From the IMG/VR virus record IMGVR_UViG_3300014208_000023, positions 1 through 64,000 of that record: a DNA stretch of 64,000 nt; one strand, given 5' to 3'. Under the pieces are notes generated by a model. The model did no database searches. It saw only the letters and a program-made list of their open reading frames with translations, and was not told the DNA's origin. Origin of the DNA: a virus (taxonomy: Duplodnaviria > Caudoviricetes). The position numbers and the translations under genes were made by a program. Below are positions 2,331-39,597 of this stretch, one piece after another (position 1 is the stretch's first letter; each line of letters begins with the position of its first letter).

Positions 2331-2382
2331 AAAATCTTACTTATCCACCTTACAATATGAGAGTCCGTGATATATAAATGGT

Positions 2383-3195
2383 ATGACCAAACATACTTAT
2401 AATTTGCAAACGTTTTATAATGAAGACGCAATTAGCTATTATCTACTTGGCGCTTTTATAACTGATGGTTGCATTTATGTTAGAAAAACAAGACCAAACA
2501 CAAAAATCGTTTCTATTAGCAGTGCCGATCGTGATTGGATGGAAATCATTAATCGATATATTAGTCCGAATAAACCAATTCTGATTACAAAAGAAAATTG
2601 CTTCACATTACAGCTATCATCAACGGAGCTGGCTAATTGGCTAGAATTAAATGGATGTTACCCTAGAAAATCACTAACTGTGAAATTTCCAATTATACCG
2701 GAACAATATTTAATAGATTTTATTCGTGGATGTTGGGATGGAGACGGATCCCTATCTTTTACCAAAAGTGGTAATGGTGGTAAAAACTACCAATCACAGG
2801 GAAACTTAACTTCAGGAAGCCTGGCATTTTGCCAGGCCATGCGCGATCATTTAATTAAATTAAATATTGCATGCAAAATATATAAACACGGCCGATCGGA
2901 AAGACTCATAGATGGCAGGAGTCTTAAACCAAGTAATGCTTGGAGGGTCGTAATTTCTAGCGGACTAGATGTATATAAGCTTGTAAAGTTGATTTATGAA
3001 CGCCCAATAATTGTAATGCCGAGAAAAGCCAACGTTGCCAATCTAATAATTAGTCATCACGAAAAAAAATTTTTCTGTATTAAATGCGGTGGTGAGTTAC
3101 TGATTTTGGCTAATGGTTATAAAAAACAATATTGTAATCAATGTTTGCGGCTTCATCGCAACGAACGACAAAGAGAATTATACAATGCAAAATAG
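2383..3195 (+). CDS. LAGLIDADG homing endonuclease
   Basis: two motifs YLLGAFITDG and FIRGCWDGDG; AT-rich; opposite strand to neighbours; C-terminal CxxC pairs. Confidence 0.9.
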   Translation: MTKHTYNLQTFYNEDAISYYLLGAFITDGCIYVRKTRPNTKIVSISSADRDWMEIINRYISPNKPILITKENCFTLQLSSTELANWLELNGCYPRKSLTVKFPIIPEQYLIDFIRGCWDGDGSLSFTKSGNGGKNYQSQGNLTSGSLAFCQAMRDHLIKLNIACKIYKHGRSERLIDGRSLKPSNAWRVVISSGLDVYKLVKLIYERPIIVMPRKANVANLIISHHEKKFFCIKCGGELLILANGYKKQYCNQCLRLHRNERQRELYNAK

Positions 3196-3215
3196 AGCAT
3201 ATACCGCATAAATAT

Positions 3216-3572
3216 TCATTTCATCTTACCTAGAGCTCTAACGGAGCTTTCCTCAACAATTATTCCGTTTAGATAGAATATGCTGCCTTGATTATCAACA
3301 TAGGCAGGGCCATCTTCCCTATGATAGTGATTATTTTTGAGCCAGCCTTTACAATCTGGGCGATCAATTGCCGGACCATCTAATCTATGAATCTGACCGT
3401 GGTTGAACCAATGCTTGGTGGATCCATCAGACGATGTATATGCTGGGCCATCCTCCCTATGGGCTCTGCCGTCTTGGTCTGTCCAATGTTCGGAGCCGTC
3501 AATGCTGCGGCGGCATATTGAAAAATCCTCTAACTCTTCAGTTGAAAGAAACTTATCAGTTACGAACTTCAT
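3216..3572 (-). CDS. HRxDGPA-repeat protein (copy 1 of 3)
   Basis: HREDGPA/HRLDGPA repeats; ends VRALGKMK. Confidence 0.85.
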   Translation of the reverse strand: MKFVTDKFLSTEELEDFSICRRSIDGSEHWTDQDGRAHREDGPAYTSSDGSTKHWFNHGQIHRLDGPAIDRPDCKGWLKNNHYHREDGPAYVDNQGSIFYLNGIIVEESSVRALGKMK

Positions 3573-3940
3573 TTCATTTTGCCTAGCGCTCTAACGGCTT
3601 CTTCCGTTACTTCGGCGCCATTAAGAAAATACTGCTTATTGCCATTCATTTTGTTGGTGTATGCTGGACCACCTTCTCTGTGATAGAGGGCGTCGATGAA
3701 CCAACCTTCCCAACTTGGCATTGATACTGCTGGGCCATCTACCCTGTGAAATGCGCCATGCTTATACCAACTATAAGACCCGTTATTATAAATAATAGCT
3801 GGACCATCTTCTCTATGAAGGCCACCTTTCTTATCTACCCAGCGTTCTTTGTAAGAGCCAGGCGTAATCGTATCTCGTTTTGAGAAGTCTTCTAACTCTT
3901 CTTTGCAGAGGAAGATTTTATTTCCGACAACAAGGATCAT
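3569..3940 (-). CDS. HRxDGPA-repeat protein (copy 2 of 3)
   Basis: HREDGPA/HRVDGPA repeats; ends VRALGKMK; ATGA overlaps. Confidence 0.85.
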   Translation of the reverse strand: MILVVGNKIFLCKEELEDFSKRDTITPGSYKERWVDKKGGLHREDGPAIIYNNGSYSWYKHGAFHRVDGPAVSMPSWEGWFIDALYHREGGPAYTNKMNGNKQYFLNGAEVTEEAVRALGKMK

Positions 3941-4302
3941 TTCATTTTTCCTAAAGCCCTAACATCGGACTCTGAAGCTGGTTTGCCGTGTAGAAAATAC
4001 AATGACGGAAGACCATCCCTGATAAGGGCCGGGCCATCTTCTCTATGGGTAATGCCGTTGATTAGCCATTGCGTTACTCCTGGCGTTTCAATAGCTGGAC
4101 CGTCTGTCCTATGTAGTTGGCCATGACAATACCAGTATTTGACTTGGCCGCCATTGCCTATGTAAGCTGGGCCATCCTCTCGATGGCAGTTGCCTTGCTT
4201 ATCAATCCATTTAGTAGAATCGCCAGCAATGAATGTGGTATCGATGATAGAGAAATCCTCTAGCTGTTCTGTAGAAAGAAACTTTTCTGTTACGAATTTC
4301 AT
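3937..4302 (-). CDS. HRxDGPA-repeat protein (copy 3 of 3)
   Basis: HREDGPA/HRTDGPA repeats; ends VRALGKMK. Confidence 0.85.
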   Translation of the reverse strand: MKFVTEKFLSTEQLEDFSIIDTTFIAGDSTKWIDKQGNCHREDGPAYIGNGGQVKYWYCHGQLHRTDGPAIETPGVTQWLINGITHREDGPALIRDGLPSLYFLHGKPASESDVRALGKMK

Positions 4303-4320
4303 TTGTGTCTTTCCAATTAG

Positions 4321-4393
4321 CGTCCCCGGCAGGACTTGAACCTGCGACCGATCGGTTAGAAACCGATTGCTCTATCCACTGAGCTACAGGGAC
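4321..4393 (-). tRNA. trnR: tRNA-Arg(UCU)
   Basis: cloverleaf GTCCCTG..CGGGGAC, AC arm ATCGG TT-TCT-AA CCGAT, T loop TTCAAGT; CCA not encoded. Confidence 0.95.
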
Positions 4394-4399
4394 ATAGTA

Positions 4400-4855
4400 T
4401 CACTTAACGATAGTTGAAACTAACCAATAGATGATTGCGTAGTGAGTCATGTGATGAACGAACTGATCAAAACCAATGCTCCACCAAAAGAAAGTATTGC
4501 CTCTAACTTGTTTCGGCGTTGCTGCTAGATATGTCTCGGCCGTGAGGGGCTTAAACCTCCCAAGAAACTTTCTTGATGCCTTTATCCTATCCATAGCAAA
4601 ATGGCAGGCCCCATCCCATATCGGAAGCAAGAAGCAATTCATTCTCCAATGAGTATTGTTGGGATCCACAATTGCATAGAATCCAAGCAATATAACAAAA
4701 GTTATAACGGCATGAACTGCGGCATGAGCAAGTAACGGCTTTTCCCATCCACTATCCTTAAACTTACCAAGCATATACTTGGTTTGTAGAGGATAGTCCG
4801 CAACGAAATGCTTGACCTGAAATGCCACGAGCAATATGATTATTGTAGTTATCAT
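4400..4855 (-). CDS. DUF3307-like membrane protein
   Basis: HFVADYPLQ, HAAVH, HFAMD, DQFVH His motifs with TM segments. Confidence 0.8.
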   Translation of the reverse strand: MITTIIILLVAFQVKHFVADYPLQTKYMLGKFKDSGWEKPLLAHAAVHAVITFVILLGFYAIVDPNNTHWRMNCFLLPIWDGACHFAMDRIKASRKFLGRFKPLTAETYLAATPKQVRGNTFFWWSIGFDQFVHHMTHYAIIYWLVSTIVK

Positions 4856-5100
4856 CTGATATTTTTTCTAGGAAATCCTACGATAAAAAGATTAATCATC
4901 GCATAAAAGAATGCGCCGAAGAAAGAATTAAACACTCTTGTATTCTCATCGTAGAGCCAAGTGTGGCCTTCATTATCGCAGAATAAATCTCCCCACCCCA
5001 GAATCCATCCACCTGATCTAGGAAAACGATCCCTAAGTAAATAGGGCAATAGCATTGGTGGTTCGGCAGGAGGGCGTTTCATTTTTGATCTGGAATCCAA
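4852..5100 (-). CDS. hypothetical protein
   Basis: ORF overlapping neighbour by ATGA. Confidence 0.55.
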   Translation of the reverse strand: MDSRSKMKRPPAEPPMLLPYLLRDRFPRSGGWILGWGDLFCDNEGHTWLYDENTRVFNSFFGAFFYAMINLFIVGFPRKNIR

Positions 5101-5624
5101 GTTGTTAATGGCCGCCCAAGAAGCTCTGTTGCTTCAAAATATCCAAAGCCACTACGCTCTGCGATCCGTTCTGCGCTTTGACTGCGGCCATATTGGATCG
5201 CATATTTTTCCCACACTTCAAGATGCTCTCTCCAAGAGATTGAACCAGGCTCTTTAGTGGGATACTTTTTACGCATCCAATTATCTGGTGGAGTCCAGTA
5301 GGGACCAGTGCCTTGAACTGGCGCGCGTCGGATTCTGATTGAGCAATCTTTACACCACGGACCAGGCTTCGGCCAATTATGATACTCTGCCCATTTTCCG
5401 CAAACGCAACGATCGTGCGCTTCACATGGAGAATCTGATTCGGAGCAGATACAATTTGGTTTATCTGCCGACCAATCAGAAGGATGCTCCGTGGGCAGAT
5501 TGGACGAATCCATCTTACTTGGCAGCCTTGTATGCCTTGCCAAGCTCCGTAAGGCAGAGCCCACCCTTGTATCGGCCCTTATTGCTTTCAACTCGCTCAT
5601 CGCGGTTAATGAAAAGGCTGACAA
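5079..5624 (-). CDS. Cys-rich hypothetical protein (true start probably at MDSSNL, ~5510)
   Basis: ORF; 5' part overlaps 5515..5802. Confidence 0.55.
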   Translation of the reverse strand: MSAFSLTAMSELKAIRADTRVGSALRSLARHTRLPSKMDSSNLPTEHPSDWSADKPNCICSESDSPCEAHDRCVCGKWAEYHNWPKPGPWCKDCSIRIRRAPVQGTGPYWTPPDNWMRKKYPTKEPGSISWREHLEVWEKYAIQYGRSQSAERIAERSGFGYFEATELLGRPLTTWIPDQK

Positions 5625-5802
5625 GAGGAGCGACGAGAGAAAGGCTCAGTCCGGTCTCTGCTGCAAGATCCTTGGCAAGGATGGTTGTGCCATACTTCTC
5701 AGGCATCTTACCATCAATGAAGTCCTCAATCATCTCGGCGGTGCGAGCGATGATGCGGTTGCAGTCTTGCGTGGTCTCTTCGGTAGCTTTTTCTTTAGAC
5801 AT
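5515..5802 (-). CDS. putative winged-helix protein
   Basis: AKDLAAETGLSLSLV helix pattern plus wing-like VESNKGRYKGG. Confidence 0.55.
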   Translation of the reverse strand: MSKEKATEETTQDCNRIIARTAEMIEDFIDGKMPEKYGTTILAKDLAAETGLSLSLVAPLVSLFINRDERVESNKGRYKGGLCLTELGKAYKAAK

Positions 5803-6058
5803 TTTGTTTTCCTGTATCTTGCTTTTTAAACCAAGGACTATTAGGGTTCCTTGGTGTAGGAGTTTGTTTTTCTAGATAGTCTGCCTGAGCAATAGCCTCA
5901 CCGTCACTCAATGCTTTATCGTAATCTTTATAGCCTGACTGTTCGTGAATATGTTCGTTGCCACATTTTACGAAAAGCCATCCTCCATGGCTTCCAGTCA
6001 GGACTGAGACCTTATATGTAAGAGAACCTATTACGATCTCTTTTTCTTTCTCATCCAT
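5795..6058 (-). CDS. hypothetical protein
   Basis: ORF in run. Confidence 0.6.
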   Translation of the reverse strand: MDEKEKEIVIGSLTYKVSVLTGSHGGWLFVKCGNEHIHEQSGYKDYDKALSDGEAIAQADYLEKQTPTPRNPNSPWFKKQDTGKQNV

Positions 6059-6199
6059 TGTTCTAAAATCCGTAAATGGGGGAAGGTAGGTTGCCGCTTG
6101 AATTAATTTTCAATGACTTGATAACTCGCTTAGAACGAATGTGATGCATCATCGGCTTAACAATGCTATTGAGCTTTAGAAGAATGCGATTGAAGAATC

Positions 6200-6424
6200 T
6201 CATTTCTCATCTCTAAAACAAAATAGGCCATTGCCACTAGAAGTCCATGACATATAACATGTCACTTGTCCAACGTCATCATGAATTTTTACTACTGAAA
6301 GAGTGCCTGGCCCATCAAACTCTTCGGTGATGCGTAGATTTGATTTCGCTTTGGTTTCTGAACTTACATCACAAGCAACTAGAGTAACGATGGCTGCTGC
6401 AATTACAAAAAGAAAACTCTTCAT
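6200..6424 (-). CDS. small lipoprotein
   Basis: signal peptide with LVAC lipobox. Confidence 0.7.
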   Translation of the reverse strand: MKSFLFVIAAAIVTLVACDVSSETKAKSNLRITEEFDGPGTLSVVKIHDDVGQVTCYMSWTSSGNGLFCFRDEK

Positions 6425-6569
6425 TGTTACCTGCCTATAGCTTTAAAACAACTTACGATGGCGACGTTGCAGCCATACATAAAAAATATAATTGAAATGA
6501 TTACTGCCCCACTAACCAGGAGTAGCTTGCACCATTCAAAAAATGGCATATTAATTCTGTTCTTCATTT

Positions 6570-6848
6570 TTAAGTTTCTTCAAATCTAAAATTGAAGTTT
6601 TTCATTGCTCCACTGAATGTTGAGCGATAGGCCGGCTCTGTAAAAGATCCGTGTTCCCACCGCCAATTATGCTTGTCCCACTTGAGGCGTTCTCTATATA
6701 CGGAGTATGGGATCTTACTAATTGGTAATACCGTAACTACAAAACGTTCTGCCGAAGTAACACTACTAAAAACAATTGGTGATGCCGTAATTATATTTGC
6801 CTGATTATAAATCTGGCTAATTACCGCGTTTTTACTTGGCTCTATCAT
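6570..6848 (-). CDS. hypothetical protein
   Basis: ORF in run. Confidence 0.55.
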   Translation of the reverse strand: MIEPSKNAVISQIYNQANIITASPIVFSSVTSAERFVVTVLPISKIPYSVYRERLKWDKHNWRWEHGSFTEPAYRSTFSGAMKNFNFRFEET

Positions 6849-6869
6849 TAGATACGTTTTGTCTTTCTT

Positions 6870-7118
6870 TTATAGTTGCGACTGTTCTTCTTCTACTGGC
6901 GGGTAGTTCTGAACAATAAATTTCTTGAGGTCGGAAGGAGTAACCATACCATCGGCGGTCTTATTTTCCTTGCCGAAACGGATGGCTTCGGCCGACCTAC
7001 CAGTCACCTTTTCAAGGGTTAGGATTGTTTTCTTTTCATCCCTTGGGTTTTTTAGAACAACGTTGTTCTTGCCAATCATGTATTCCCAAGTTTCGTTATC
7101 GACCACAATCTTACGCAT
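6870..7118 (-). CDS. hypothetical protein
   Basis: ORF in run. Confidence 0.65.
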   Translation of the reverse strand: MRKIVVDNETWEYMIGKNNVVLKNPRDEKKTILTLEKVTGRSAEAIRFGKENKTADGMVTPSDLKKFIVQNYPPVEEEQSQL

Positions 7119-7132
7119 TACTTTTTAATTAC

Positions 7133-7348
7133 CTAATAGAGGTGAGGGTTGTTTCTTTTATCGCAAATTGAGTAACGGTATTTTTTACTATCTACAAATA
7201 GTTTTAATTTGTCCATAGTATGAGGGCCAGTTGGGCAATAGGCCACTTGCTGTTCTCGTGCTCCATATACGAAATGTATTCCATATCTTGAACCACAAGC
7301 AGAGCATAGCCTATCATAATTTCGATCTATGATATTCGGTCTTCCCAT
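7133..7348 (-). CDS. hypothetical protein
   Basis: ORF with GAGGG RBS downstream of a sigma70 promoter. Confidence 0.65.
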   Translation of the reverse strand: MGRPNIIDRNYDRLCSACGSRYGIHFVYGAREQQVAYCPTGPHTMDKLKLFVDSKKYRYSICDKRNNPHLY

Positions 7349-7363
7349 CGCCCTCTACCTTTC

Positions 7364-7392
7364 ATAATACGCACGATCAGCACGCCTGTCAA
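7364..7392 (-). promoter_or_regulatory. sigma70-type promoter
   Basis: TTGACA-17 nt-TATTAT. Confidence 0.75.
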
Positions 7393-7601
7393 GAGGGTGG
7401 TCGTCGGGAAAATAGCGTGCCAGCGTCATCCCCATCCCGGCCGAGATTTGGTTCCCACTATGAGCTGACATTGGAGATAATAGATTATCTCTTCTTTATT
7501 TTTTTTATCGGGTTCTTCAATGCCAACATAGGCTGCCAGCCGTCGCAGGTATTCTTCGCTAGAATCTCTGGCGGCTTTCTCTGATATCTGACGGGCCACG
7601 A

Positions 7602-7943: not shown

Positions 7944-8720
7944 TTACACCAATGCATTGATATAATCCTTCCATCTAATGGATTTTCTACTCATTTGTTT
8001 GGGCATATAATCTTTTATATATTCAATATATTTAAGGACTTCCGATTTTTTACTTATATAAAGATAAAATCCTTTATCTAAATCCTTCATTGAATTTTTT
8101 CTAGCAATTTTGAATTGTATATCTATTGCTTGGTGTAGCAAGCTTTGTAAGAATTCCACTTCTTTTTTTAAGAAGGAATCAGTATATAAAGAAATCCTTA
8201 ATCCTTTTTTGGATGAGCCGCAACGAACAACGCTTCCGTCGTCACAAAACCAAATTGCACATATTAAAGGTGTTAGTCTTAACTCTAAAGGAATTATTTT
8301 GGTTGCGTTGATATACCACTTATTTTTAATCGACGAAATGACCGGGGACACCTGCGTCCTAAACGAACAGCTTTTGTATATCTTATTGGTTCTGGCGTCT
8401 AAAGTATTAGTTACTTTAATGCCAGACATACAAAAATCTTTATATAAATAGAATTGGTATTCTAAATATTCCAAATCAATTATTGATCTCTTAATTGAGA
8501 TGCCAGAATTGATTTGGTTTTTGTATTGATACAACGAAGTGTCGCCAAGGAGTCCTCCAATCAAAACTTGAAGTTGAGTTTCGGTTAAAGAAGTAGGTGG
8601 TTTAGAATTAAACTTCCAAGCACCATTACTTATTTTATAGTATCTGGCCTTATCATAACAAGGCTTACATTTTTTCTGACCAGTGGAGGGCGCGTCATTT
8701 TGACATGTTATACACTTCAT
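7944..8720 (-). CDS. LAGLIDADG homing endonuclease (two-motif type)
   Basis: VLIGGLLGDTSL and AIWFCDDGS motifs; AT-rich; N-terminal CxxC. Confidence 0.9.
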   Translation of the reverse strand: MKCITCQNDAPSTGQKKCKPCYDKARYYKISNGAWKFNSKPPTSLTETQLQVLIGGLLGDTSLYQYKNQINSGISIKRSIIDLEYLEYQFYLYKDFCMSGIKVTNTLDARTNKIYKSCSFRTQVSPVISSIKNKWYINATKIIPLELRLTPLICAIWFCDDGSVVRCGSSKKGLRISLYTDSFLKKEVEFLQSLLHQAIDIQFKIARKNSMKDLDKGFYLYISKKSEVLKYIEYIKDYMPKQMSRKSIRWKDYINALV

Positions 8721-8770
8721 AAAAAGTATATATCATATCATTCACTTTTGTGAAGTAGAAACTACGCTAA

Positions 8771-19189: not shown

Positions 19190-19260
19190 AGCCCATAGAA
19201 GGAGTCGAACCCTCAAGACCTAGGTACAAACTAGGGATTTTACCGTTAAATTACATGGGC
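19190..19260 (-). tRNA. trnT: tRNA-Thr(UGU)
   Basis: GCCCATG..TATGGGC, AC arm CCTAG TT-TGT-AC CTAGG, T loop TTCGACT. Confidence 0.9.
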
Positions 19261-19279
19261 CTGTGATATATGTTATGAT

Positions 19280-27675: not shown

Positions 27676-28200
27676 CTACTTCTTGAGTGATTTGATTTTG
27701 ACGATCAAACCAAGAAAGAATAGTTGAGCAAACATCCAGAGATGAATGATGAATTTGTACGGTGGAGTAATGATGTTTGCATTGACCCAATCTGCAAGCC
27801 TAACAATTGGTCGGGCACGTACGGCTCCCAAACAATTTGCCCAGATGCGATTCGTTTCGATATTCACTTCTCGAAGACGCTGAATCTCAAGGTGCAACGG
27901 AGCGGCGACTCCATCGTTATAGCATGGAAGACACTTATCTCCAAGCCAATCATTGACAAGCTTGCCACATACAGAACACTTACATTTGGGATTGGGCATT
28001 TTCTTTTTCTTACTAACTTGATATTTGGTGAGGGGTGAAAGCTTGGTTGCCCTAACTTTCAGTTCTGCGGGAACCCATCCTTTAGATTGGATGGGCAATG
28101 TGATTTTAGATGAGGGCTTAATCCTCACTGACCTACCACCGCTTAGGTAGGTGATGCTTTCAATACGAACCATTGTATAGTTCCTTTGTGGTGATCCCAA
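27676..28200 (-). CDS. hypothetical membrane protein (start uncertain)
   Basis: CSVCG..CLPC and C-terminal TM; 5' end overlaps tRNA-Glu 3' end. Confidence 0.5.
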   Translation of the reverse strand: MGSPQRNYTMVRIESITYLSGGRSVRIKPSSKITLPIQSKGWVPAELKVRATKLSPLTKYQVSKKKKMPNPKCKCSVCGKLVNDWLGDKCLPCYNDGVAAPLHLEIQRLREVNIETNRIWANCLGAVRARPIVRLADWVNANIITPPYKFIIHLWMFAQLFFLGLIVKIKSLKK

Positions 28201-28264
28201 CGAGATTTGAACTCGTGTGCTCGGAGTGAAAATCCGATATCCTAAACCGCTAGATGATGGGACC
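28189..28264 (-). tRNA. trnE: tRNA-Glu(UUC), CCA encoded
   Basis: GGTCCCA..TGGGATC-A-CCA, AC arm TCGGA TT-TTC-AC TCCGA, T loop TTCAAAT. Confidence 0.95.
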
Positions 28265-28678
28265 TAAACGTAACCAGTTATTTTCTTTGGCAGTCTTACG
28301 ACGGTGACAGTTAGAGCATCTAACTACACACTTTTCTATCTCCAGATCAATTTTAGTTTTACTCATTCCGTAGCGCAACAGTGTTGATATGCCTGCAACC
28401 TTTTCGCCAGTAACGTGGTCGAAATCTAAAACGACAGGATCCTTTTCGCCGCAATCAACACATCCATCTTTCATTCTGCCAATGACGTAGTACGCAAGTA
28501 GTTTCTTGCGCTCTTTATTTCTAGCAAAATGCTTATCTTTATTTGCTAGATAAAAATCGCGGCTGATTGCTTTTGAGCAATCTCTACAGTTAGGTTGTAA
28601 TCCAGACCTCTTTTTGTTGAAATCAGATACGGGTTTAGATGAGCGACACGAGCTACATACTTTGAAAGACAAAGACAT
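28250..28678 (-). CDS. HNH homing endonuclease
   Basis: CVDCG...LDFDHV...CVVRCSNCHRRKT; N-terminal CSSC..CRDC. Confidence 0.92.
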   Translation of the reverse strand: MSLSFKVCSSCRSSKPVSDFNKKRSGLQPNCRDCSKAISRDFYLANKDKHFARNKERKKLLAYYVIGRMKDGCVDCGEKDPVVLDFDHVTGEKVAGISTLLRYGMSKTKIDLEIEKCVVRCSNCHRRKTAKENNWLRLGPII

Positions 28679-33365: not shown

Positions 33366-33536
33366 TCAGTCAGAGGTGAAGAGATGATACTCCCATCCAG
33401 TTTCTCCCTGAGCCCTACCATTCTTCGTCCACCTAACCATGGCCTTCTGCGCCCCTTCATATGAATATGAAGAGAACGTTCCAAGACTTTTATTACCAGT
33501 CTGGATATGAATCGTTAGATAGACGAAGAGTAACAC
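33366..33536 (-). CDS. 56-aa ORF absent from track, preceded by TGATATATC-N6-GTG
   Basis: hand translation VLLFVYLTIHIQTGNKSLGTFSSYSYEGAQKAMVRWTKNGRAQGETGWEYHLFTSD; fills the gap exactly. Confidence 0.55.
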   Translation of the reverse strand: MLLFVYLTIHIQTGNKSLGTFSSYSYEGAQKAMVRWTKNGRAQGETGWEYHLFTSD

Positions 33537-33548
33537 ATCAGAGATATA

Positions 33549-33761
33549 TCAGGCGAGGGTCGGCTTCCAAGTTTTGAGGAAGGATTCGGCAAACTTACGG
33601 GGAAGACGTTCATCGCCGTCACCATCAATTTGCAGATGATAATCCTTATCCTCACTGCCATGAATAGAAAACTTCTCGTGTGGAAATTTCTTGATAAGCT
33701 CCGGCATCATATCAATGAGAGGCGGAAGCTTCTTTCTATTAACTAGAACTACAAACATCAT
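33549..33761 (-). CDS. hypothetical protein
   Basis: ORF in run. Confidence 0.65.
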   Translation of the reverse strand: MMFVVLVNRKKLPPLIDMMPELIKKFPHEKFSIHGSEDKDYHLQIDGDGDERLPRKFAESFLKTWKPTLA

Positions 33762-33952: not shown

Positions 33953-34167
33953 GATCTTACCGCCGGAGTATATCCGTACGAATGTAAAATGTTAGTTGCC
34001 GGAATATACATTGCCTCGGTAACTTCCCATCGATAGAACCGATCCTCATCACATGCGGTAGAATGAGAAACCTTATTCATTGCCTCTACTAGACGAGGAG
34101 AAAGGTTCTCAACACAATCATGAATAGTAATATGCCCCGTATGCGGACTGCCAATATAATTCTTCAT
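33949..34167 (-). CDS. hypothetical protein
   Basis: ORF in run. Confidence 0.55.
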   Translation of the reverse strand: MKNYIGSPHTGHITIHDCVENLSPRLVEAMNKVSHSTACDEDRFYRWEVTEAMYIPATNILHSYGYTPAVRS

Positions 34168-34727
34168 GAATGATTACCTTCTAGGCTCTTTTTTACGCCT
34201 GCCGATATCTTCGCCTTATGCTCTGCGCTTTTTGGCCTACCCTTTTGGGTATTTGATATTTTCTGTTTTGTCTCGGCAGACATATGTAAACCAGTTCGCC
34301 CAGAACTTATTTTCTTTCTTGTCTGTTCTGAAACAATCCGTTGGGATAAAACCTTTTTGGTTTCATCCGAATGATGTTTACCGAAAAAAGAATTGCGGTC
34401 TCCCATTTTACTGCGAGAAATTTTCTCTTTAGTCTCCTCAGAAAGAGGAGGGTTAGCTCCGCCAGACTGCAAATTGAAACCGTTATTAACGGAATTATAT
34501 TCGATAATGTAATTTGTTTCTAAAACGTTAGCTTGCTGCAACGTGGCGCATTCATCAATGACTGATATGTCAAACTCATTTGCGCCGTATTTTTGGATAG
34601 CATTGCGTATCCGCGTGCAGCCACTAGTTTTAAGTTTATGATTTCTCCACCTGCTTAATGGATTGGTAGTTAGTCCAATGTAGGATCTGTTGGATTTACG
34701 ATGAAGAATCCGGTAGATATAATACAT
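34164..34727 (-). CDS. GIY-YIG homing endonuclease with NUMOD3-type repeats
   Basis: YYIYRI..SYIGLT..RWRNH..E..YI..GFN; repeats SEETKEKIS, HHSDETKK, SAETKQKIS. Confidence 0.93.
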   Translation of the reverse strand: MYYIYRILHRKSNRSYIGLTTNPLSRWRNHKLKTSGCTRIRNAIQKYGANEFDISVIDECATLQQANVLETNYIIEYNSVNNGFNLQSGGANPPLSEETKEKISRSKMGDRNSFFGKHHSDETKKVLSQRIVSEQTRKKISSGRTGLHMSAETKQKISNTQKGRPKSAEHKAKISAGVKKSLEGNHS

Positions 34728-34815
34728 AACTGTTATATACCACCCTGCTTACGACTTTTACTGGGATAAGCGAGTATACAGATGGAACACTAACGTTCCT
34801 AACAAAAGGAATCTT

Positions 34816-35013
34816 ATGTCTCTACTTACAATCGTAATCGTTCTCATTCTCGCTGGCGTTGGGCTCTACGTCATAAACTCTATTATCCCAATGGACGCAA
34901 CCATAAAGAAGGTAATCAATATCGTTGTTATCGTGGTTGTTTGTCTGTGGTTAGTAATGAGTCTATTTGGCGGAGCTGGAGCTGTGGGTATTCACATGCC
35001 CCGCATTAACTGA
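34816..35013 (+). CDS. small two-TM membrane protein (Thivi_2564-like)
   Basis: GVGLYVINSIIPMDATIKKVINIVV pattern; AAGGA RBS; own terminator. Confidence 0.8.
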   Translation: MSLLTIVIVLILAGVGLYVINSIIPMDATIKKVINIVVIVVVCLWLVMSLFGGAGAVGIHMPRIN

Positions 35014-35034
35014 TTAGTAATTAGTTTTTACCCT

Positions 35035-35068
35035 AAACCCGCTTGGTATAACCAAGCGGGGTTTTTTA
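35035..35068. terminator. bidirectional intrinsic terminator
   Basis: CCCGCTTGGT/ACCAAGCGGG flanked by AAA and TTTTTT between convergent genes. Confidence 0.85.
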
Positions 35069-35266
35069 TTCAAGCTCAATCATTACGACACGAAGCTGTT
35101 CGTATTGTTCTTTTTCGCGAATATATTTACCATCAACAATGGTTTCACGAACTTCATCAAGACTGTCTAGAGAGCCAGGGCCGAACGGCCCCATAGTTGA
35201 TCCGACCCATACAGGCAAGCTTTGATCCATTGTCTGGAGTTTAGCAATCAATTCTGCAACGGTCAT
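35066..35266 (-). CDS. hypothetical phage protein (MTVAELIAKL type)
   Basis: common phage N-terminal motif. Confidence 0.7.
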   Translation of the reverse strand: MTVAELIAKLQTMDQSLPVWVGSTMGPFGPGSLDSLDEVRETIVDGKYIREKEQYEQLRVVMIELE

Positions 35267-35277
35267 TTCATTTTCCT

Positions 35278-35805
35278 TTAGAACTTACAGAAGGCTGAGG
35301 TCATGGAAACGTTCGCCTTTTCCCAAAGAACCAATTGTTCTTTGGCCTTAATGATCTTTTCCTCGAAAGGAGGAGGGCCATCTTCTCCTCTGAAAGAGAA
35401 GGTTGGACGACCAGCAATCGTCACTCTTGCCATTGCCTGCTTGCCATCAATCCAATCGCGAAGCATCTGCTTGCGATCAGTTGGAAACTCCACGCCAGGA
35501 AATGACTCGAAGAAATCCGAGAAGACCTTTGCTTCACTATACTCGTTGAGACCGATCCATTGAACATGACCGTTCTCATCGAGAAACATACACGCAGCCA
35601 GGCGAGCGTATGTGCTTTCAACCGCCTTGTTCCAGATATTGCCCTTCTTTGGGTTGGTGGTCTGGTAACAGAATCGGAAACCCTTATTGGGTTTCAACTC
35701 CAACCAGCATCGCTTCTTACAGCGAAGACTGAAGCCATAAGGGTAATCACCAATCAGATACGCGGTATCTTGCGACGTATGACCGTAAAGCGGCGTGACA
35801 ACCAT
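35278..35805 (-). CDS. hypothetical phage protein
   Basis: DYPYGFSLRC..TTNPK..WNK..STY; GAGG RBS. Confidence 0.75.
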   Translation of the reverse strand: MVVTPLYGHTSQDTAYLIGDYPYGFSLRCKKRCWLELKPNKGFRFCYQTTNPKKGNIWNKAVESTYARLAACMFLDENGHVQWIGLNEYSEAKVFSDFFESFPGVEFPTDRKQMLRDWIDGKQAMARVTIAGRPTFSFRGEDGPPPFEEKIIKAKEQLVLWEKANVSMTSAFCKF

Positions 35806-35819
35806 TGTGGCCTCGTTGT

Positions 35820-35848
35820 AGTGTAAGGCCGGCGTGAGGTCACGTCAA
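35820..35848 (-). promoter_or_regulatory. sigma70-type promoter
   Basis: TTGACG-17 nt-TACACT. Confidence 0.7.
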
Positions 35849-35861
35849 GGCCGTTGTATTG

Positions 35862-36209
35862 CTAGGGAATAGAATTGCCTGGGTGTGCGGGAACTGTCTT
35901 CCAAGCCTCGGGAATGGTGAAAAAAGAAACCAATGGCCCCTTAAGGATGTACGATTTAATAATCGTATCATCATTAAGTACTCCAACATACTCTCTGCAT
36001 TCACTAGCCTCAAGAAGTCTTGTTGGAAGAACCTCATTATTACCATAGGTATCCCAATCTCCAATTGGGCACTCCTCAATGATAACTCCATCGCGAGCAT
36101 ACCACTTTTCCGCACACTTAAGTGCTTCTTGAGTATTCAAGAAGAACCCATGAACTACGTGGCCATCATCCATGCCAAGATCCGTATAGACTCGAAGAAT
36201 TGATTTCAT
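35862..36209 (-). CDS. hypothetical protein
   Basis: ORF in run. Confidence 0.6.
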   Translation of the reverse strand: MKSILRVYTDLGMDDGHVVHGFFLNTQEALKCAEKWYARDGVIIEECPIGDWDTYGNNEVLPTRLLEASECREYVGVLNDDTIIKSYILKGPLVSFFTIPEAWKTVPAHPGNSIP

Positions 36210-36532
36210 TCTAGTGCCGTCTCAATCTCTTTTCCTACAACGATGGAGACTCCCACGACTACTGGAATTGCAAGCAATGTAAAAATCCCAACGAGCCAAT
36301 ACGCTACTGAACTGCCATTTCCAGTAATATGGTGGAGCCCATACAGATTATCACTAATGAATTGGCCGAACATAGCTACGCCTGGAAACACAAACAAGCC
36401 AACCACTACCGTGGTAACTGCACCAAGAATGGCTCGGCCAATCTTGTATGCAATAGGATATGAGCGCTTGAATGGAACTACTTCCTTGGGCTCGGGAGGC
36501 TCGGTAGGCGGAGGGCAATTAGTTCGATACAT
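36206..36532 (-). CDS. two-TM membrane protein
   Basis: two hydrophobic segments. Confidence 0.65.
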   Translation of the reverse strand: MYRTNCPPPTEPPEPKEVVPFKRSYPIAYKIGRAILGAVTTVVVGLFVFPGVAMFGQFISDNLYGLHHITGNGSSVAYWLVGIFTLLAIPVVVGVSIVVGKEIETALE

Positions 36533-36779
36533 TAGTAAATCCTTTGGACGAGAGTGTCCGCTTTATGTGAGCGAAGCGAGCGATACCGAACTGGATCTAG
36601 TTATCCAGATGATCAAACTACTTTATTATTATTCAGTATAACTATTCCCAGACCGAGAGCTTTGTGGGCCGCGCTACCGCTTGGCCTGCTATACTCGATC
36701 GTCGAAGACTGCTGACCTCACCAAGTGAGGTATATCACAGGATCTTAAAGTTTAAAGAATAGTAATAAAATACTTTATG

Positions 36780-37115
36780 TCAGTTGAGTATCATCCACCT
36801 ACGCCCACTATCAGGGTCAATATTGTACCGATGATACTCAGGCATCGTGAAGCCATTCTTCTTGTATAGATGAATAGCTCTAGCGTTACCGCTAAGAACG
36901 TCAAGGGTAATCGTCGTCATACCACGGTTACGAGCTTCTTGAATAAGCTCAAGCATCATCATGTGACCGTGACCCTTATCACGATTCGCCTCGGAGATAA
37001 CGTAGTTACAAATGAAACCAACCTCATCTCCATGAAGATCAAACCTGCCAGTTACTTTGGGATCCGAATCACATACCCACGCATAGTGATTGTGTGTTTT
37101 GATAAGCATGGGCAT
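36780..37115 (-). CDS. GNAT acetyltransferase
   Basis: motif A ISEANRDKGHG, ITLDVLSGNARAIHLYKKNGF. Confidence 0.9.
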   Translation of the reverse strand: MPMLIKTHNHYAWVCDSDPKVTGRFDLHGDEVGFICNYVISEANRDKGHGHMMMLELIQEARNRGMTTITLDVLSGNARAIHLYKKNGFTMPEYHRYNIDPDSGRRWMILN

Positions 37116-37121
37116 GTCCTT

Positions 37122-37376
37122 TCATTTTTTAGTTTCGAGATATGGAATGGGGGATGGAACGACTTCGCAATATGTAAAGGCTTTTCGATAACCTTCCCAC
37201 CAAGCTTTACCAGTAGCAAGACGCTGCTTTAGCCAAGCATCTTTCCAAGAATCTCTTTCGGCCATAAGGCTTTTCAATTTTGAATTCAAGCCATTGATTT
37301 CTTGATTAGCTTTAGCTAAAAGCTTTCGGTCATATTCAACTTGAGGAAATGGATCTGATTCAAACTCATATTGCAT
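37122..37376 (-). CDS. coiled-coil hypothetical protein (start MQYEFESD)
   Basis: GGAG RBS before internal Met of track ORF 37122..37541. Confidence 0.65.
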   Translation of the reverse strand: MQYEFESDPFPQVEYDRKLLAKANQEINGLNSKLKSLMAERDSWKDAWLKQRLATGKAWWEGYRKAFTYCEVVPSPIPYLETKK

Positions 37377-37632
37377 ATGTGCTCCATTGAAAAAGCTTGA
37401 GAGACACGGTGCTTGGTAGTGGTAGGCTGATGCCAAACTTATAACCACTTTAGCCGTTAGCCTGACTTGCTGATTACTACTAGGGGAGCTACCCGGTTCG
37501 CAAGGTAGAGCGATACCCCAAAAAGGGGAACCAATACGCAATCAACAAAAATAAATTCCATTTTAGGGAATATATTCCAGACCTTGGTAATACTCTGCTA
37601 AAAAATATTACCTTTACCATCCAATCTCTCAG

Positions 37633-37701
37633 TGGTTCGCATAGGACTTGCACCTACATGCCAGGGTGGGAGCCCTGTATACTGCTTTGTATGAACGAAC
37701 C
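37633..37701 (-). tRNA. trnG: atypical tRNA-Gly(CCC)
   Basis: GGTTCGT..GCGAACC-A; AC CAGGG CT-CCC-A CCCTG (6-nt loop if fully paired); T loop TGCAAGT. Confidence 0.6.
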
Positions 37702-38090
37702 TAATTCACATTCTTACGTGGAATGCGACATGTAACGGCCATGATAGTCATGTTATCATTATTCAATACTGAATGGGTCGTGTCCTTGATTGACACCTTA
37801 ACGTTTGGGAAATTCAACTTTAGTAATCGAACGGCCTTCTTTAGGAGAAGGTCAAACTTCTCTGGAGTTAAACTTGAGACATCTTTGGCCAAGTAGTATG
37901 GCTCAGTCATTAGCTCTATAGTAACTTCAAAATGAGAGGGATGCTCTTCCAAATTATTATCTGCAACGAATGGGTATAGGTCTTTCATAACCGCATCCAT
38001 TCTATCTCTTACAGAATCCTTCTCTGTATCTCCCGATACTTCATCTAGAAATTCATCGGCTAACTTAATGAGTTCTGAATTGGCTGCCAT
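37701..38090 (-). CDS. hypothetical protein
   Basis: ORF; stop abuts tRNA. Confidence 0.7.
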   Translation of the reverse strand: MAANSELIKLADEFLDEVSGDTEKDSVRDRMDAVMKDLYPFVADNNLEEHPSHFEVTIELMTEPYYLAKDVSSLTPEKFDLLLKKAVRLLKLNFPNVKVSIKDTTHSVLNNDNMTIMAVTCRIPRKNVN

Positions 38091-38099
38091 TATGTAATG

Positions 38100-38700
38100 A
38101 TAGAATATTCACAGAAGTGTATTAGATTACTCGGAGAGTACGAACCGATAGTTGGAGTCATCGATGGAAGGTTAAAGGCCATCACCAATGTTCCGAGGCA
38201 TCCCTCTAACTGGTTGCTGAACAACCCGCACATAGAACATAATCTAACACACTTCAGTCGGTCCTTGATTATAGGCCTTTGGGGGAGGAGAATCCATAAT
38301 CAAGGACTGACTGAAAAGCGTTAGAGATTAATGATTTTAAACCAGCCCCTAACTTTTGGGCGCCTTCTAACTATGAGAGACTACCTCTACGGTCGAGGGT
38401 GAGATCAAGCACCCAGCGGCAAAGGGATCGTTTTACATCATAGAGTTAGCGGGCTGATTGAAAAGCGTTAGTGATACGGTAGAGCCAGCTACCGAACCTT
38501 TATTCAATTACCATTACTGGATGGTTGCCGCTATTACATTGCGGCTTCGCCTACTGATAACCAGGAATCAATTCTGCGGGGATAAGGAGGTTTTAGTCAG
38601 TTCCCTAACCTTGCGTCGGATTTAACCGCGAGTGTTTATCTTTGAGCTGCATCATGGACTTATGCTCGATTCAAATGCTGTTACGCACACACAAGCTCAT
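38100..38700 (-). ncRNA. candidate large (~600 nt) structured ncRNA
   Basis: 20-bp near-perfect helix, 22-nt direct repeat, pseudoknot potential, no credible ORF. Confidence 0.55.
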
Positions 38701-38865
38701 TGTCAATAGGTATGTATCATTTCAACCTAAAGACTCAGCATTCTACTTACATCCCTGTATCCTACCTGATGTAATCAAATAGGCCGGGGATAAAGACTAG
38801 AAACTACTATCTGACTTATAGTTTCCATTACCGGCAAATTGTATTTCAATTCAGACCGGATTGAT

Positions 38866-39141
38866 TTATTCCGCTGCCTCTTCCGGGATCGGAAGGCGCA
38901 GGCTATTGAGCAGAGCGTTGCGATCCTCCTTGCCTTCCGGCATAGGCCTTCCAGCGAGAATCCAAGCCTTGCGCTTGACGTGATAGTTGCGATGCCCGGT
39001 GAATCGGGCTTCGTTGCAGTTCTCGGCATTGATAGCCTTCTCTGCACGCACACGAGTGAAGCCCTTTTTGGCAGCACTCAAGTTCTGACGCTTGATGCCC
39101 AACTGGATCTTACTCTTCGTTCCGCTTCGTCCCCTAGACAT
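38866..39141 (-). CDS. basic hypothetical protein
   Basis: Arg/Lys-rich ORF with AAGGAG RBS. Confidence 0.7.
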   Translation of the reverse strand: MSRGRSGTKSKIQLGIKRQNLSAAKKGFTRVRAEKAINAENCNEARFTGHRNYHVKRKAWILAGRPMPEGKEDRNALLNSLRLPIPEEAAE

Positions 39142-39180
39142 GTTCGTTCTCCTTATTTTGTTGTGATATATCTAATCATA

Positions 39181-39597
39181 ATGCATAAAAAATCTAGAGA
39201 CAGACTCCATCCCATGATGGTTAGCGCCAGACAAACTTATAATCACTCCTATAAGAAGAAAGATAAAAATTGCTGTGATTTTGAAACCTTCTATCGGTTA
39301 TCACAACTACCTTGCCATTACTGTGGGAGAAACCCATTTAGAATTTACAATATAGGAAATTGTAGGGAAGGTAGCTATTATACGACCGATGAGCAGAAGG
39401 AGAATGGTAATTTTGTTTATAACGGAATTGACCGAATAGACAGTACGAAAAGTCATACTTCAGATAATTTAGTTCCGTGTTGTTGGGTATGCAACCGAGC
39501 GAAGGCAAATAAGCCTGTAGAAGAATTTCTTGAATGGATTGAGTTAGTATATAATTATACTAAACTAACTCATCGAACATCCGACACAACCGTTTAA
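39181..39597 (+). CDS. HNH-like homing endonuclease
   Basis: PCHYCG..NGIDRIDSTKSHTSDNLVPCCWVCNRAK; start reassigned to 39181 after TGATATATC motif. Confidence 0.85.
   Translation: MHKKSRDRLHPMMVSARQTYNHSYKKKDKNCCDFETFYRLSQLPCHYCGRNPFRIYNIGNCREGSYYTTDEQKENGNFVYNGIDRIDSTKSHTSDNLVPCCWVCNRAKANKPVEEFLEWIELVYNYTKLTHRTSDTTV

What the first reader, a model, noticed from the sequence alone, without database searches (positions are those of the whole stretch)
2368..39183. Unrelated homing endonucleases share one leaderless start signal, TGATATATA-N6-8-ATG/GTG
Seen: LAGLIDADG 2383 (+) TGATATATA-6-ATG; LAGLIDADG 8720 (-) TGATATATA-6-ATG; HNH 19280 (+) TGATATATG-7-ATG; HNH-like 23978 (-) TGATATATA-6-GTG; GIY-YIG 34727 (-) TGGTATATA-6-ATG; HNH-like 39181 (+) TGATATATC-8-ATG. 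None has a Shine-Dalgarno, whereas many neighbouring genes do. The motif also predicts a missed 56-aa ORF (33543 TGATATATC-6-GTG). Inference: three non-homologous nuclease families, on both strands, use one promoter that starts transcription at the start codon. It resembles an extended -10 lacking the -7 T, or a phage late-sigma promoter. This may be a genome-wide timing control for selfish nucleases.
Basis: partly seen in the sequence, partly recalled or inferred. Interest (0 to 1): 0.8.

Follow-up and report, generated by a model that had tools for sequence, protein, structure and literature searches.

The report
Phage promoter fused to homing-endonuclease start codons
A short DNA signal (T-GATATAT-A/C) is a general promoter of this 428-kb groundwater phage and its relatives, and selfish nuclease genes of several unrelated families preferentially carry it placed so that transcription should begin at or within a few bases of their start codon.

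Summary
All seven cited sites exist at the stated coordinates, and 7 of the 9 TGRTATAT copies in the window sit 6-8 nt before a gene start (chance about 1e-16).

GATATAT is the most enriched upstream 7-mer of the whole genome. It also precedes the portal, Thg1-like, nuclease, AAA ATPase and epimerase genes, with or without a Shine-Dalgarno leader. It is kept upstream of the portal gene in eight relatives. It has no -35 element and avoids T at the -7 position. I read it as a clade-wide, phage-specific promoter, not a nuclease-only signal.

Homing endonucleases are nevertheless strongly over-represented in the leaderless arrangement: 9 of 26 against 9 of 633 other genes (p = 2e-9). Eight of the 11 such genes in the putative early region are endonucleases. 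In relatives the same signal precedes LAGLIDADG, GIY-YIG, HNH and two TnpB genes. Homologues in unrelated phages use TATAAT plus a Shine-Dalgarno leader instead.

Two endonucleases that lie co-oriented inside operons have strong hairpins that would bury the start codon in read-through RNA. This resembles the control of T4 I-TevI.

One sigma-70-family gene was found and no phage RNA polymerase. No RNA data were available, so no transcription start is mapped. Other first-stage notes of this scan had recorded the motif elsewhere in this genome.

The parts
2368..2376 (+). Motif TGATATATA, 6 nt before the ATG at 2383
2383..3195 (+). LAGLIDADG_3 homing endonuclease (270 aa), antisense to the surrounding minus-strand genes
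   Evidence: Pfam PF14528, 1.2e-10; a homologue aligns from residue 3
8727..8735 (-). Motif TGATATATA, 6 nt before the ATG at 8720
   Evidence: The motif and the whole 50-nt intergenic stretch are homologous to the region upstream of the 59%-identical gene in L039.
7944..8720 (-). LAGLIDADG_2 homing endonuclease (258 aa)
   Evidence: Pfam PF03161, 2.2e-29
8701..8740 (-). Predicted hairpin. Its 5' arm is the motif plus spacer and its 3' arm is codons 1-6. It encloses the AUG and can form only in RNA that starts upstream of the motif.
   Evidence: -17.7 kcal/mol, z = -4.7, 0 of 200 shuffles. RNA starting at the AUG folds at only -3.1 kcal/mol.
19264..19272 (+). Motif TGATATATG, 7 nt before the ATG at 19280
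19280..19921 (+). HNH endonuclease (213 aa), antisense, next to tRNA-Thr
   Evidence: phrog_10822, 5.7e-18; weak PF01844 match; tRNA
23985..23993 (-). Motif TGATATATA, 6 nt before the GTG at 23978
23415..23978 (-). Endonuclease VII / HNH-like nuclease (187 aa). The GTG start is supported by homologues that align from residue 1.
   Evidence: phrog_3322, 1.4e-21
23946..23996 (-). Predicted hairpin that pairs the motif's 3' end, the spacer and the GU of the start codon with codons 4-8
   Evidence: -21.8 kcal/mol, z = -4.8, 0 of 200 shuffles; repeat gave z = -4.1, 2 of 200
33543..33551 (-). Motif TGATATATC, 6 nt before the GTG at 33536. Its TGA is the stop codon of the upstream gene 33549-33761.
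33366..33536 (-). 56-aa orphan ORF. It is already called in the source annotation and has no homologues.
34734..34742 (-). Variant motif TGGTATATA, 6 nt before the ATG at 34727
   Evidence: GGTATAT is only weakly enriched upstream of genes: 4 against 1.8 expected.
34164..34727 (-). GIY-YIG + NUMOD3 homing endonuclease (187 aa), first gene of a tightly coupled run of small genes
   Evidence: Pfam
39164..39172 (+). Motif TGATATATC, 8 nt before the ATG at 39181
39181..39597 (+). Truncated HNH endonuclease (138 aa) of a five-member family (39181, 72604, 92551, 314297, 314620)
19983..19991 (+). Orphan copy of TGATATATA with no ORF behind it; it points antisense into minus-strand genes
   Evidence: Not explained.
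28250..28678 (-). HNH endonuclease (paralogue of 67672) without the motif. Upstream is TTGATATCA-aagt-ATG.

Best explanation
T-GATATAT-(A/C) is a compact, -35-independent promoter used throughout this 428-kb phage and its relatives. It is probably read by host RNA polymerase that the phage has re-targeted. The one phage-encoded sigma-70-family protein (114,627-115,274) is the obvious candidate for that role.

The promoter drives ordinary genes, either through a short Shine-Dalgarno leader or with the start codon 6-8 nt downstream. In the second arrangement the mRNA should begin at, or 1-3 nt before, AUG/GUG, so it would be leaderless.

Free-standing homing endonucleases, and TnpB genes in a relative, are autonomous insertions. 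They are often antisense to the local operon. They preferentially use the leaderless arrangement, which amounts to a roughly 15-bp self-contained expression module.

A start codon without a Shine-Dalgarno is translatable mainly when it lies at the 5' end of the RNA. The nuclease would therefore be made only from transcripts fired by its own promoter, not from operon read-through. At two co-oriented genes a hairpin reinforces this.

Shown here: the motif, its geometry, its genome-wide use, its conservation, its enrichment at endonucleases and the predicted hairpins. Inferred: promoter activity, the exact transcription start, which sigma reads it, and the timing.
For: 1. Promoter-like behaviour.
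- GATATAT is the top upstream 7-mer: 37 genes against 5.3 expected.
- 32 of 130 copies lie at -45..-8 of a gene, against 3.8 expected. Single-base variants are mostly not enriched.
- 30% of copies are intergenic, against 8% of the genome.
- There is no -35 element.
- The same motif sits 18-60 nt upstream of SD-containing leaders.
- It occurs as palindromic divergent pairs serving two genes, at 67679/67686 and 410589/410596.
- It occurs 17 bp downstream of a TTGTCGAGA box (box enrichment 6 against 0.8).
- Copies near genes differ from other copies by T at -1 (22/37 against 29/93) and A/C rather than T after the 7-mer (29/37 against 43/93).

2. Conservation.
- TGATATAG is kept upstream of the portal gene in eight relatives at about 68% amino-acid identity, there with an AAGGAA leader.
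- The leaderless geometry is kept at Thg1 in the 406-kb relative.

3. Leaderless geometry.
- The distance from G to the start codon peaks sharply at 14-16 nt.
- The spacer has no room for a Shine-Dalgarno, and starts are confirmed by homologue N-termini.

4. Endonuclease bias.
- 9/26 against 9/633 (odds ratio 37, p = 2e-9). Among genes with an upstream gap of at least 15 nt the figures are 9/15 against 6/228.
- 6 of 8 plus-strand endonuclease genes carry it.
- In relatives, GATATAT-N7-9-ATG occurs 27 times against 6 for the control pattern.
- The long ORFs behind those sites include LAGLIDADG x2, GIY-YIG, HNH x2 and TnpB x2.
- Homologues in unrelated phages have TATAAT plus an SD leader instead.

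5. Gating hairpins at 8720 and 23978: z = -4.7 and -4.8, 0 of 200 shuffles. Plus-strand endonuclease genes have none. The L039 homologue also pairs the motif with its AUG through a different sequence (z = -2.1).

6. Machinery.
- One full sigma-70-family gene: TIGR02937, 54 bits against a cut-off of 42.9.
- No RNA polymerase beta, beta' or T7-type match.

7. Precedent. T4 endonucleases under their own middle or late promoters, with hairpin-blocked translation of longer transcripts (PMC2988022). Single-element promoters read by the phiEco32 sigma (PMC8948821).
Against: - No transcription start site or expression data exist.
- GATATAT is not depleted inside genes. There are 130 copies against about 125 expected from base composition (my own arithmetic). 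Either extra determinants exist or internal firing is tolerated.
- Significant gating hairpins occur at only 2 of about 11 leaderless endonuclease genes.
- Two sites use GTG, which is a weak leaderless start in E. coli (established knowledge). The host is unknown.
- At least 11 endonuclease genes lack the motif, so it is not a universal nuclease control.
- The gene set comes from my own simple gene caller, and the endonuclease list may be incomplete.
- Four of the 26 'endonucleases' (the HNH-C family) rest on a DH..P..NLRP..N motif and sub-threshold HNH_4 hits only. Without them the test is 8/22 against 10/637, p = 1.4e-8.
Confidence: 0.6

Rival explanations
1. The motif is an ordinary extended -10 promoter (TGnTATAAT class) read by the host's primary sigma. 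A small phage factor that disables -35 recognition would create the temporal switch, as gp39 does in Thermus phage P23-45. No phage sigma would be involved.
For: - TG-A-TATAT matches the TG-n-hexamer geometry, and there is no -35 element.
- The putative early promoters of this phage are of the -10/-35 type with an upstream GTG.
- P23-45 middle and late promoters are of the extended -10 class and escape gp39 (PMC3950348).
Against: - In the extended -10 register the -7 base is A or C in 29 of 37 promoter-like copies and T in only 5. T is common (36/93) in copies that are not near genes.
- No register gives both A-11 and T-7, which are the two bases primary sigmas read most strictly (established knowledge).
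- The near-invariant 7-mer looks more like a dedicated specificity.
- The phage does encode a full sigma.
Confidence: 0.2
2. The motif acts at the RNA level as a Shine-Dalgarno substitute or AU-rich translational enhancer, placed where an SD would be. It would not be a promoter.
For: - Its 3' end lies 6-8 nt from the start codon, which is the usual SD spacing.
- The genome's SD signal is weak overall: about a third of genes have a 4-mer.
Against: - The same motif lies 18-60 nt upstream of genes that have their own AAGGA-type SD. This includes the portal gene of eight relatives.
- It forms palindromic divergent pairs.
- It sits at 17 bp from a -35-like box.
- Antisense endonuclease genes with intergenic gaps of only 16-52 nt have no other promoter candidate.
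- At 8720 and 23978 the motif RNA would pair with the start codon and block it.
Confidence: 0.07
3. The shared signal is hitch-hiking. The cassettes, or their co-conversion tracts, were copied with one flanking sequence, so the similarity reflects common descent of DNA and not selection for a common control.
For: - The 8720 cassette and its L039 homologue share the whole 50-nt upstream region.
- The GIY-YIG genes 390169 and 391067 are tandem paralogues.
Against: - At least seven non-homologous or very distant nuclease families carry it.
- Outside the 9-mer the upstream sequences are unrelated.
- Within families, presence of the motif follows context: it is present in antisense or isolated copies and absent in operon-embedded copies with an SD.
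- Core genes such as portal and Thg1 use it too.
Confidence: 0.05
4. The motif is an RNA processing site. A sequence-specific endoribonuclease would cut operon transcripts just before the start codon and so create leaderless mRNAs after transcription.
For: The fixed distance to the start codon, and occurrence inside co-oriented operons.
Against: - Six endonuclease genes with the motif are antisense to the operons and need a promoter anyway.
- The palindromic divergent pairs and the -35-like partner box point to a function at the DNA level.
- No candidate RNase was looked for.
Confidence: 0.05

Closest known systems
Regulation of T4 homing endonucleases (I-TevI, I-TevII, I-TevIII, segB, Aeh1 mobE): a phage middle or late promoter immediately upstream, plus an RNA hairpin that blocks translation of longer early transcripts (PMC2988022)
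   Same: - A phage-specific, -35-less promoter sits directly in front of nuclease genes that are embedded in earlier transcription units.
- At 8720 and 23978 a strong hairpin can form only in read-through RNA and buries the start codon.
- Other endonuclease genes in the same genome are promoter-less cassettes in operons, as with T4 segC, segF and segG.
   Different: - There is no Shine-Dalgarno at all. The start codon itself is placed at the predicted 5' end, so gating would work through leaderless initiation and not through freeing an RBS.
- The motif is GATATAT, not TATAAATA.
- No gp55/gp33 system was tested.
- The arrangement is shared by many more families, including TnpB in a relative.
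- Timing is unknown.
Single-element promoters read by a phage-encoded sigma (phiEco32 gp36; PMC8948821), and the T4 late promoter TATAAATA
   Same: - One short, nearly invariant element near -10 with no -35.
- The phage encodes a sigma-70-family protein and no RNA polymerase of its own.
   Different: - The sequence is different.
- The link between the sigma and this motif is untested.
- A subset of promoters pairs a GATATA/GATAAG -10 with a TTGTCGAGA box 17 bp upstream. That would suit a sigma with regions 2 and 4.
Extended -10 middle and late promoters of Thermus phage P23-45 (PMC3950348), and leaderless genes predicted from promoter position in Cluster O mycobacteriophages (PMC4351075)
   Same: - A TG-n-hexamer look with no -35.
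- A promoter positioned so that +1 coincides with the first codon.
   Different: - T at -7 is avoided here.
- Leaderless geometry is confined mostly to this one motif class and is not a genome-wide habit: there is no general TAnnnT peak at leaderless distance.

Membership tests
Extended -10 (TGnTATAAT) sigma-70-type promoter | TG one base upstream of the -10 hexamer | tested here: met
   G is fixed by the search. T precedes it in 22 of 37 promoter-like copies, against 29 of 93 other copies.
Extended -10 (TGnTATAAT) sigma-70-type promoter | Conserved A at -11 and T at -7 of the hexamer | tested here: not met
   In the TG-n register -11 is A, but -7 is A or C in 29 of 37 copies and T in 5 of 37. 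No other register gives both bases.
Extended -10 (TGnTATAAT) sigma-70-type promoter | No requirement for a -35 element | tested here: met
   No information content from -45 to -3 in 53 intergenic copies.
Leaderless mRNA gene | A -10-like element ending 6-8 nt before the start codon, with no Shine-Dalgarno | tested here: met
   Distance peak at 14-16 nt from G; sites listed.
Leaderless mRNA gene | Mapped 5' triphosphate end at, or within a few nt of, the start codon | not testable with these tools
   No RNA run holds this phage.
T4-type endonuclease control (own late or middle promoter plus inhibitory hairpin in longer transcripts) | Hairpin that sequesters the translation start and needs sequence upstream of the gene's own promoter start | tested here: inconclusive
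   Strong at 8720 and 23978 (z about -4.7, 0 of 200 shuffles). Weak at 34727 and 33536 and in L039. Absent at the other sites.
T4-type endonuclease control (own late or middle promoter plus inhibitory hairpin in longer transcripts) | Expression restricted to middle or late infection | not testable with these tools
   Indirect only. The sites lie in regions with TTGACA-type promoters and higher GC, and the same motif precedes the portal and replication or repair genes elsewhere.
Free-standing homing endonuclease genes | LAGLIDADG, GIY-YIG or HNH catalytic domain | tested here: met
   Pfam and PHROGs. 39181 and the HNH-C family are supported only by weak or sub-threshold matches.
Free-standing homing endonuclease genes | Presence/absence or positional polymorphism between related genomes | tested here: met
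   The HNH at 231412 lies at another site and in the other orientation, apparently broken into two reading frames, in the 406-kb relative. The HNH-C at 290437 is absent between Thg1 and the next gene in that relative. The L039 LAGLIDADG has unrelated flanks.
Sigma-70-family factor (phage-encoded) | Regions 2 to 4 detectable over a curated cut-off | tested here: met
   TIGR02937, 54.4 bits against 42.9, profile positions 8-164 of 165; PHROG sigma families. Its promoter specificity was not tested.

The most novel reading that the evidence does not exclude
A clade of huge groundwater phages has a portable promoter-start-codon fusion of about 15 bp. Unrelated selfish nucleases (LAGLIDADG, GIY-YIG, several HNH families, endo VII-like, TnpB) have adopted it convergently. 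It ties their translation strictly to firing of a phage-sigma-dependent promoter. Read-through transcripts stay silent, with no Shine-Dalgarno and in some cases a reinforcing hairpin. This would be a leaderless version of the T4 late-promoter/hairpin logic and would act as a common timing gate for genome parasites.
Probability: 0.35. Interest if true: 0.65.

Novelty: new variant of a known kind. Interest (0 to 1): 0.5.

Why it matters
If the start sites are confirmed, this gives three things.

1. It would define a phage-specific promoter class for an uncultured clade of phages of about 400 kb. That would help annotate their transcription units and their temporal programme.

2. It would be a clear natural example of leaderless initiation used as a gate. 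The protein is made only from the gene's own promoter, which is a simpler solution than the RBS-sequestering hairpins of T4.

3. It would show that mobile nucleases adapt their expression signals to the resident phage and do not carry them from genome to genome. This bears on how homing endonucleases and TnpB persist without harming their carrier. The 15-bp module could also be a compact expression part.

It does not reveal a new kind of system. Control of phage endonucleases by phage-specific promoters is textbook T4 biology.

Tried and rejected
- RNA evidence. Two searches of public runs were made. The first listed only DNA holders, from groundwater metagenomes that may be the source sample. 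The second, using the gene at 183,893 that an earlier first-stage note calls the capsid gene (not checked here), gave only shares of 0.04-0.07 in contig-only runs. No RNA holder was listed, and I did not lay reads.
- Near-identical phage records: none in the phage collection.
- An unconstrained EM motif search drifted to the A-rich ribosome-binding signal. A thresholded PWM refinement stayed at the exact 7-mer. Both were replaced by single-mismatch enrichment.
- The generic sigma-70 promoter and terminator scan of 1-40 kb found no more promoters than shuffles did: 46 against 43.5 and 49 against 42.9. Its hits overlapping 8735 and 19264 would put +1 inside the coding region.
- A general TAnnnT peak at leaderless distance: absent.
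- Group I introns around the endonuclease genes: none at Rfam gathering scores.
- The 200-aa orphan proteins 67694 and 71389: no Pfam or PHROG hit, only 19% identity to each other, and the Atlas gave nothing usable.
- HNH-C family. A profile against solved structures found nothing. The AlphaFold model was poor (pLDDT 54.6), so no fold search was run.
- The HNH 19280 had no relative in the viral contigs.
- Literature searches for the motif itself returned nothing relevant.
- Considered and rejected: that the motif is each endonuclease's own operator or homing site. That is implausible for families with different DNA-binding domains, and it also precedes non-nuclease genes.

Full report
**Where the window lies.** The window is the first 64 kb of a 428,320-bp virus record with direct terminal repeats. 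Its DNA is held by groundwater metagenomes. My own dicodon-based gene caller gives 659 genes, 566 of them on the minus strand. The genome is 92% coding and uses the standard code.

**Checking the observation.** All seven sites are in the sequence exactly as written. Domain searches confirm the nucleases:
- LAGLIDADG_3 at 2383, LAGLIDADG_2 at 8720 and GIY-YIG+NUMOD3 at 34727.
- HNH at 19280, and an endonuclease VII/HNH-like protein at 23978 (PHROGs).
- A weak HNH at 39181. Its paralogues align only from the ATG at 39181 onward, which supports that start.

Homologues in other phages align from residue 1-3 of 8720, 23978, 34727 and 2383. The starts are therefore sound, and there is no room for a Shine-Dalgarno in the 6-8-nt spacer.

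The raw count of TGRTATAT in the window is only marginal: 9 against 4.0 expected. The positioning is what matters: 7 of the 9 copies lie 6-8 nt before a gene start, P about 1e-16.

The 56-aa ORF at 33536 is already a called protein in the public collection and has no homologue.

**What the motif is.** Looking beyond the window changes the picture.
- GATATAT is the most enriched 7-mer in the 60 nt upstream of all genes: 37 against 5.3 expected.
- 32 of its 130 copies fall at -45..-8 of a gene, against 3.8 expected. Almost no single-base variant is enriched, so the 7-mer is nearly invariant.
- There is no -35 signal.
- Copies near genes have T before the G, and A or C after the 7-mer but rarely T. 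The functional word is therefore T-GATATAT-A/C.
- The distance from G to the start codon has a sharp peak at 14-16 nt and a flat tail out to 60 nt. In the tail an AAGGA-type Shine-Dalgarno lies between the motif and the ATG.

Genes behind the motif include:
- the portal protein (phrog_16240)
- a Thg1-like enzyme
- a PD-(D/E)XK nuclease
- an AAA ATPase
- an epimerase
- an IMPDH/GMP-reductase-like gene
- an FAD oxidoreductase

.

Two palindromic copies (GATATATC) each serve two divergent genes. Several promoters combine GATATA or GATAAG with a TTGTCGAGA box 17 bp upstream. One of these lies in front of the phage's sigma gene.

In eight relatives whose portal is about 68% identical, TGATATAG is retained upstream of the portal gene. 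There it is followed by a 17-nt leader with AAGGAA. These properties fit a promoter. They do not fit a ribosome-binding element or a processing site.

**Other promoter classes and machinery.** Two other promoter-like classes exist.
- TTGACA-N15-18-TAnnnT sites, usually with an upstream GTG. The clearest copies, read by eye from the full list, cluster at about 346-428 kb and 7-76 kb, where GC is higher. In the stricter gene-upstream tally the pattern is more scattered.
- AATAWWNNNRYAT in front of large genes at 171-228 kb: 14 in upstream zones against 2.8 expected. Other first-stage notes had already listed this motif.

The genome encodes one full sigma-70-family protein (TIGR02937, 54 bits against a cut-off of 42.9) and one protein with region 4 only. 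There is no detectable RNA polymerase beta, beta' or T7-type enzyme.

**Is there a special link with selfish nucleases?** Yes, although it is not exclusive. I listed 26 endonuclease genes from family searches and paralogy. Four of these form an 'HNH-C' family that is recognised only by a DH..P...NLRP..N motif and sub-threshold HNH_4 hits.
- The strict leaderless arrangement (GATATAT 13-17 nt before ATG/GTG) occurs at 9 of 26 endonuclease genes against 9 of 633 other genes (odds ratio 37, p = 2e-9).
- Among genes with at least 15 nt of upstream intergenic DNA it occurs at 9 of 15 against 6 of 228.
- Without the HNH-C family the result is 8/22 against 10/637, p = 1.4e-8.
- Six of the eight plus-strand (antisense) endonuclease genes have it.
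- Endonuclease genes that lack it are co-oriented in operons and use an SD or translational coupling. T4 has similar 'promoter-less cassettes' (PMC2988022).
- In the putative early region (1-66 kb and 346-428 kb), 8 of the 11 leaderless-motif genes are endonucleases. Elsewhere the figure is 3 of 18.

**Replication in other genomes.** In five related records GATATAT-N7-9-ATG occurs 27 times, against 6 for the reversed control pattern. Fourteen of these sites open ORFs of at least 140 aa:
- two LAGLIDADG genes
- one GIY-YIG
- two HNH
- one HNH-C
- two TnpB (OrfB_IS605 plus the Cas12f-like TNB domain)
- three Cys-rich unknowns
- the orthologues of Thg1, the PD-(D/E)XK nuclease and gene 251135

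.

By contrast, homologues of the 23978 nuclease in unrelated phages carry TATAAT plus a GGAG leader. GIY-YIG homologues there also show no GATATAT. The signal therefore belongs to the resident phage clade and is adopted by incoming nucleases.

Mobility is visible in three places:
- The HNH at 231412 lies at another site and in the other orientation in the 406-kb relative. There it appears broken into two reading frames and has no motif.
- The HNH-C at 290437 is missing between Thg1 and its neighbour in that relative.
- The L039 LAGLIDADG has unrelated flanks, yet it shares the whole 50-nt upstream region, motif included, with 8720.

**Mechanism.** If the -10-like element is TATATN or GATATA, +1 falls on, or 1-3 nt before, the start codon. 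A start codon without a Shine-Dalgarno is used efficiently only at a 5' end (established knowledge of leaderless initiation). The nuclease would therefore be translated only from its own promoter's transcripts.

Two co-oriented genes add a second lock. RNA that reads through from upstream would fold the motif and spacer against the first codons:
- 8720: -17.7 kcal/mol, z = -4.7.
- 23978: -21.8 kcal/mol, z = -4.8.

Neither value was reached by any of 200 shuffles. RNA starting at the start codon loses the fold. The L039 homologue pairs its motif with its AUG through different bases (z = -2.1). Antisense endonuclease genes, which cannot be read through from the operon, show no such hairpin.

This is the logic described for T4 I-TevI, I-TevII, I-TevIII, segB and Aeh1 mobE (PMC2988022). 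The difference is that leaderless initiation replaces a freed ribosome-binding site.

**What reads the motif.** This is open. A primary-sigma extended -10 reading, as in P23-45 (PMC3950348), fits the TG and the lack of a -35. It is contradicted by the avoidance of T at -7. A dedicated phage sigma, as in phiEco32 (PMC8948821), fits better but is untested.

**Limits.**
- No transcription start, timing or host is known.
- The 7-mer is not depleted inside genes.
- Significant hairpins occur at only two sites.
- The gene and endonuclease lists are my own.

**Verdict.** I class it as a new variant of a known kind of regulation.

Noticed in passing
window 23012-23399 (-): A tmRNA gene (Rfam RF00023, 80.7 bits) lies 16 nt downstream of the endo VII-like nuclease 23978-23415, so the TGATATATA promoter may also transcribe it. 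HNH genes also abut tRNA-Thr (19190-19260) and tRNA-Glu (28192-28264). T4 segB in its tRNA cluster is a precedent (PMC2330249, listed).
   Followed up: partly
G000 151200-151919, 155594-156421, 263596-264207, 289547-290437 (all -): A four-copy family with an invariant W.W..DHI.P.S ... NLRP.S.K.N C-terminus and long Lys-rich helices. It looks like an unannotated HNH family (HNH_4 sub-threshold in 3 of 5 members). One copy is absent at the orthologous site of the 406-kb relative.
   Followed up: partly
L098:1517-2635 and L115:1516-2745 (406-kb relative, IMGVR_UViG_3300044797_000098): Two TnpB genes (OrfB_IS605 plus the Cas12f-like TNB domain) start 8-9 nt after TGATATATA, the same leaderless-type signal as the homing endonucleases. 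By phmmer, the window's genome has no TnpB.
   Followed up: partly
G000 88136, 115323, 122658, 253872, 255583, 263236, 272511 and others: A TTGTCGAGA(A) box lies 17 bp upstream of GATATA, GATAAG or TATAAT, including in front of the sigma-factor gene. It is a candidate -35 partner of the same promoter family, or an activator site.
   Followed up: partly
G000 67679/67686 and 410589/410596: The perfect palindrome GATATATC sits midway between two divergent genes, each starting 14-15 nt away. This would be overlapping face-to-face promoters within a 21-22-nt intergenic gap.
   Followed up: no
G000 67694-68323 (+) and 71389-71991 (+): Two orphan proteins of about 200 aa (19% identical, collinear). 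Each is leaderless behind the motif, antisense to its neighbours and adjacent to an HNH gene. They have no family, and their function is unknown.
   Followed up: partly
window 19983-19991 (+): An exact TGATATATA with no ORF behind it, 62 nt after the HNH gene, pointing antisense into minus-strand genes. It could be a relic promoter or an antisense RNA start.
   Followed up: no
G000 171-228 kb: AATAWWNNNRYAT lies 6-18 nt before large genes (14 in upstream zones against 2.8 expected). It is probably a separate late-promoter class, as other first-stage notes proposed.
   Followed up: partly
window 33543-33551 (-): The TGA of the motif TGATATATC is the stop codon of the upstream gene 33549-33761, so promoter and stop codon overlap.
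   Followed up: no
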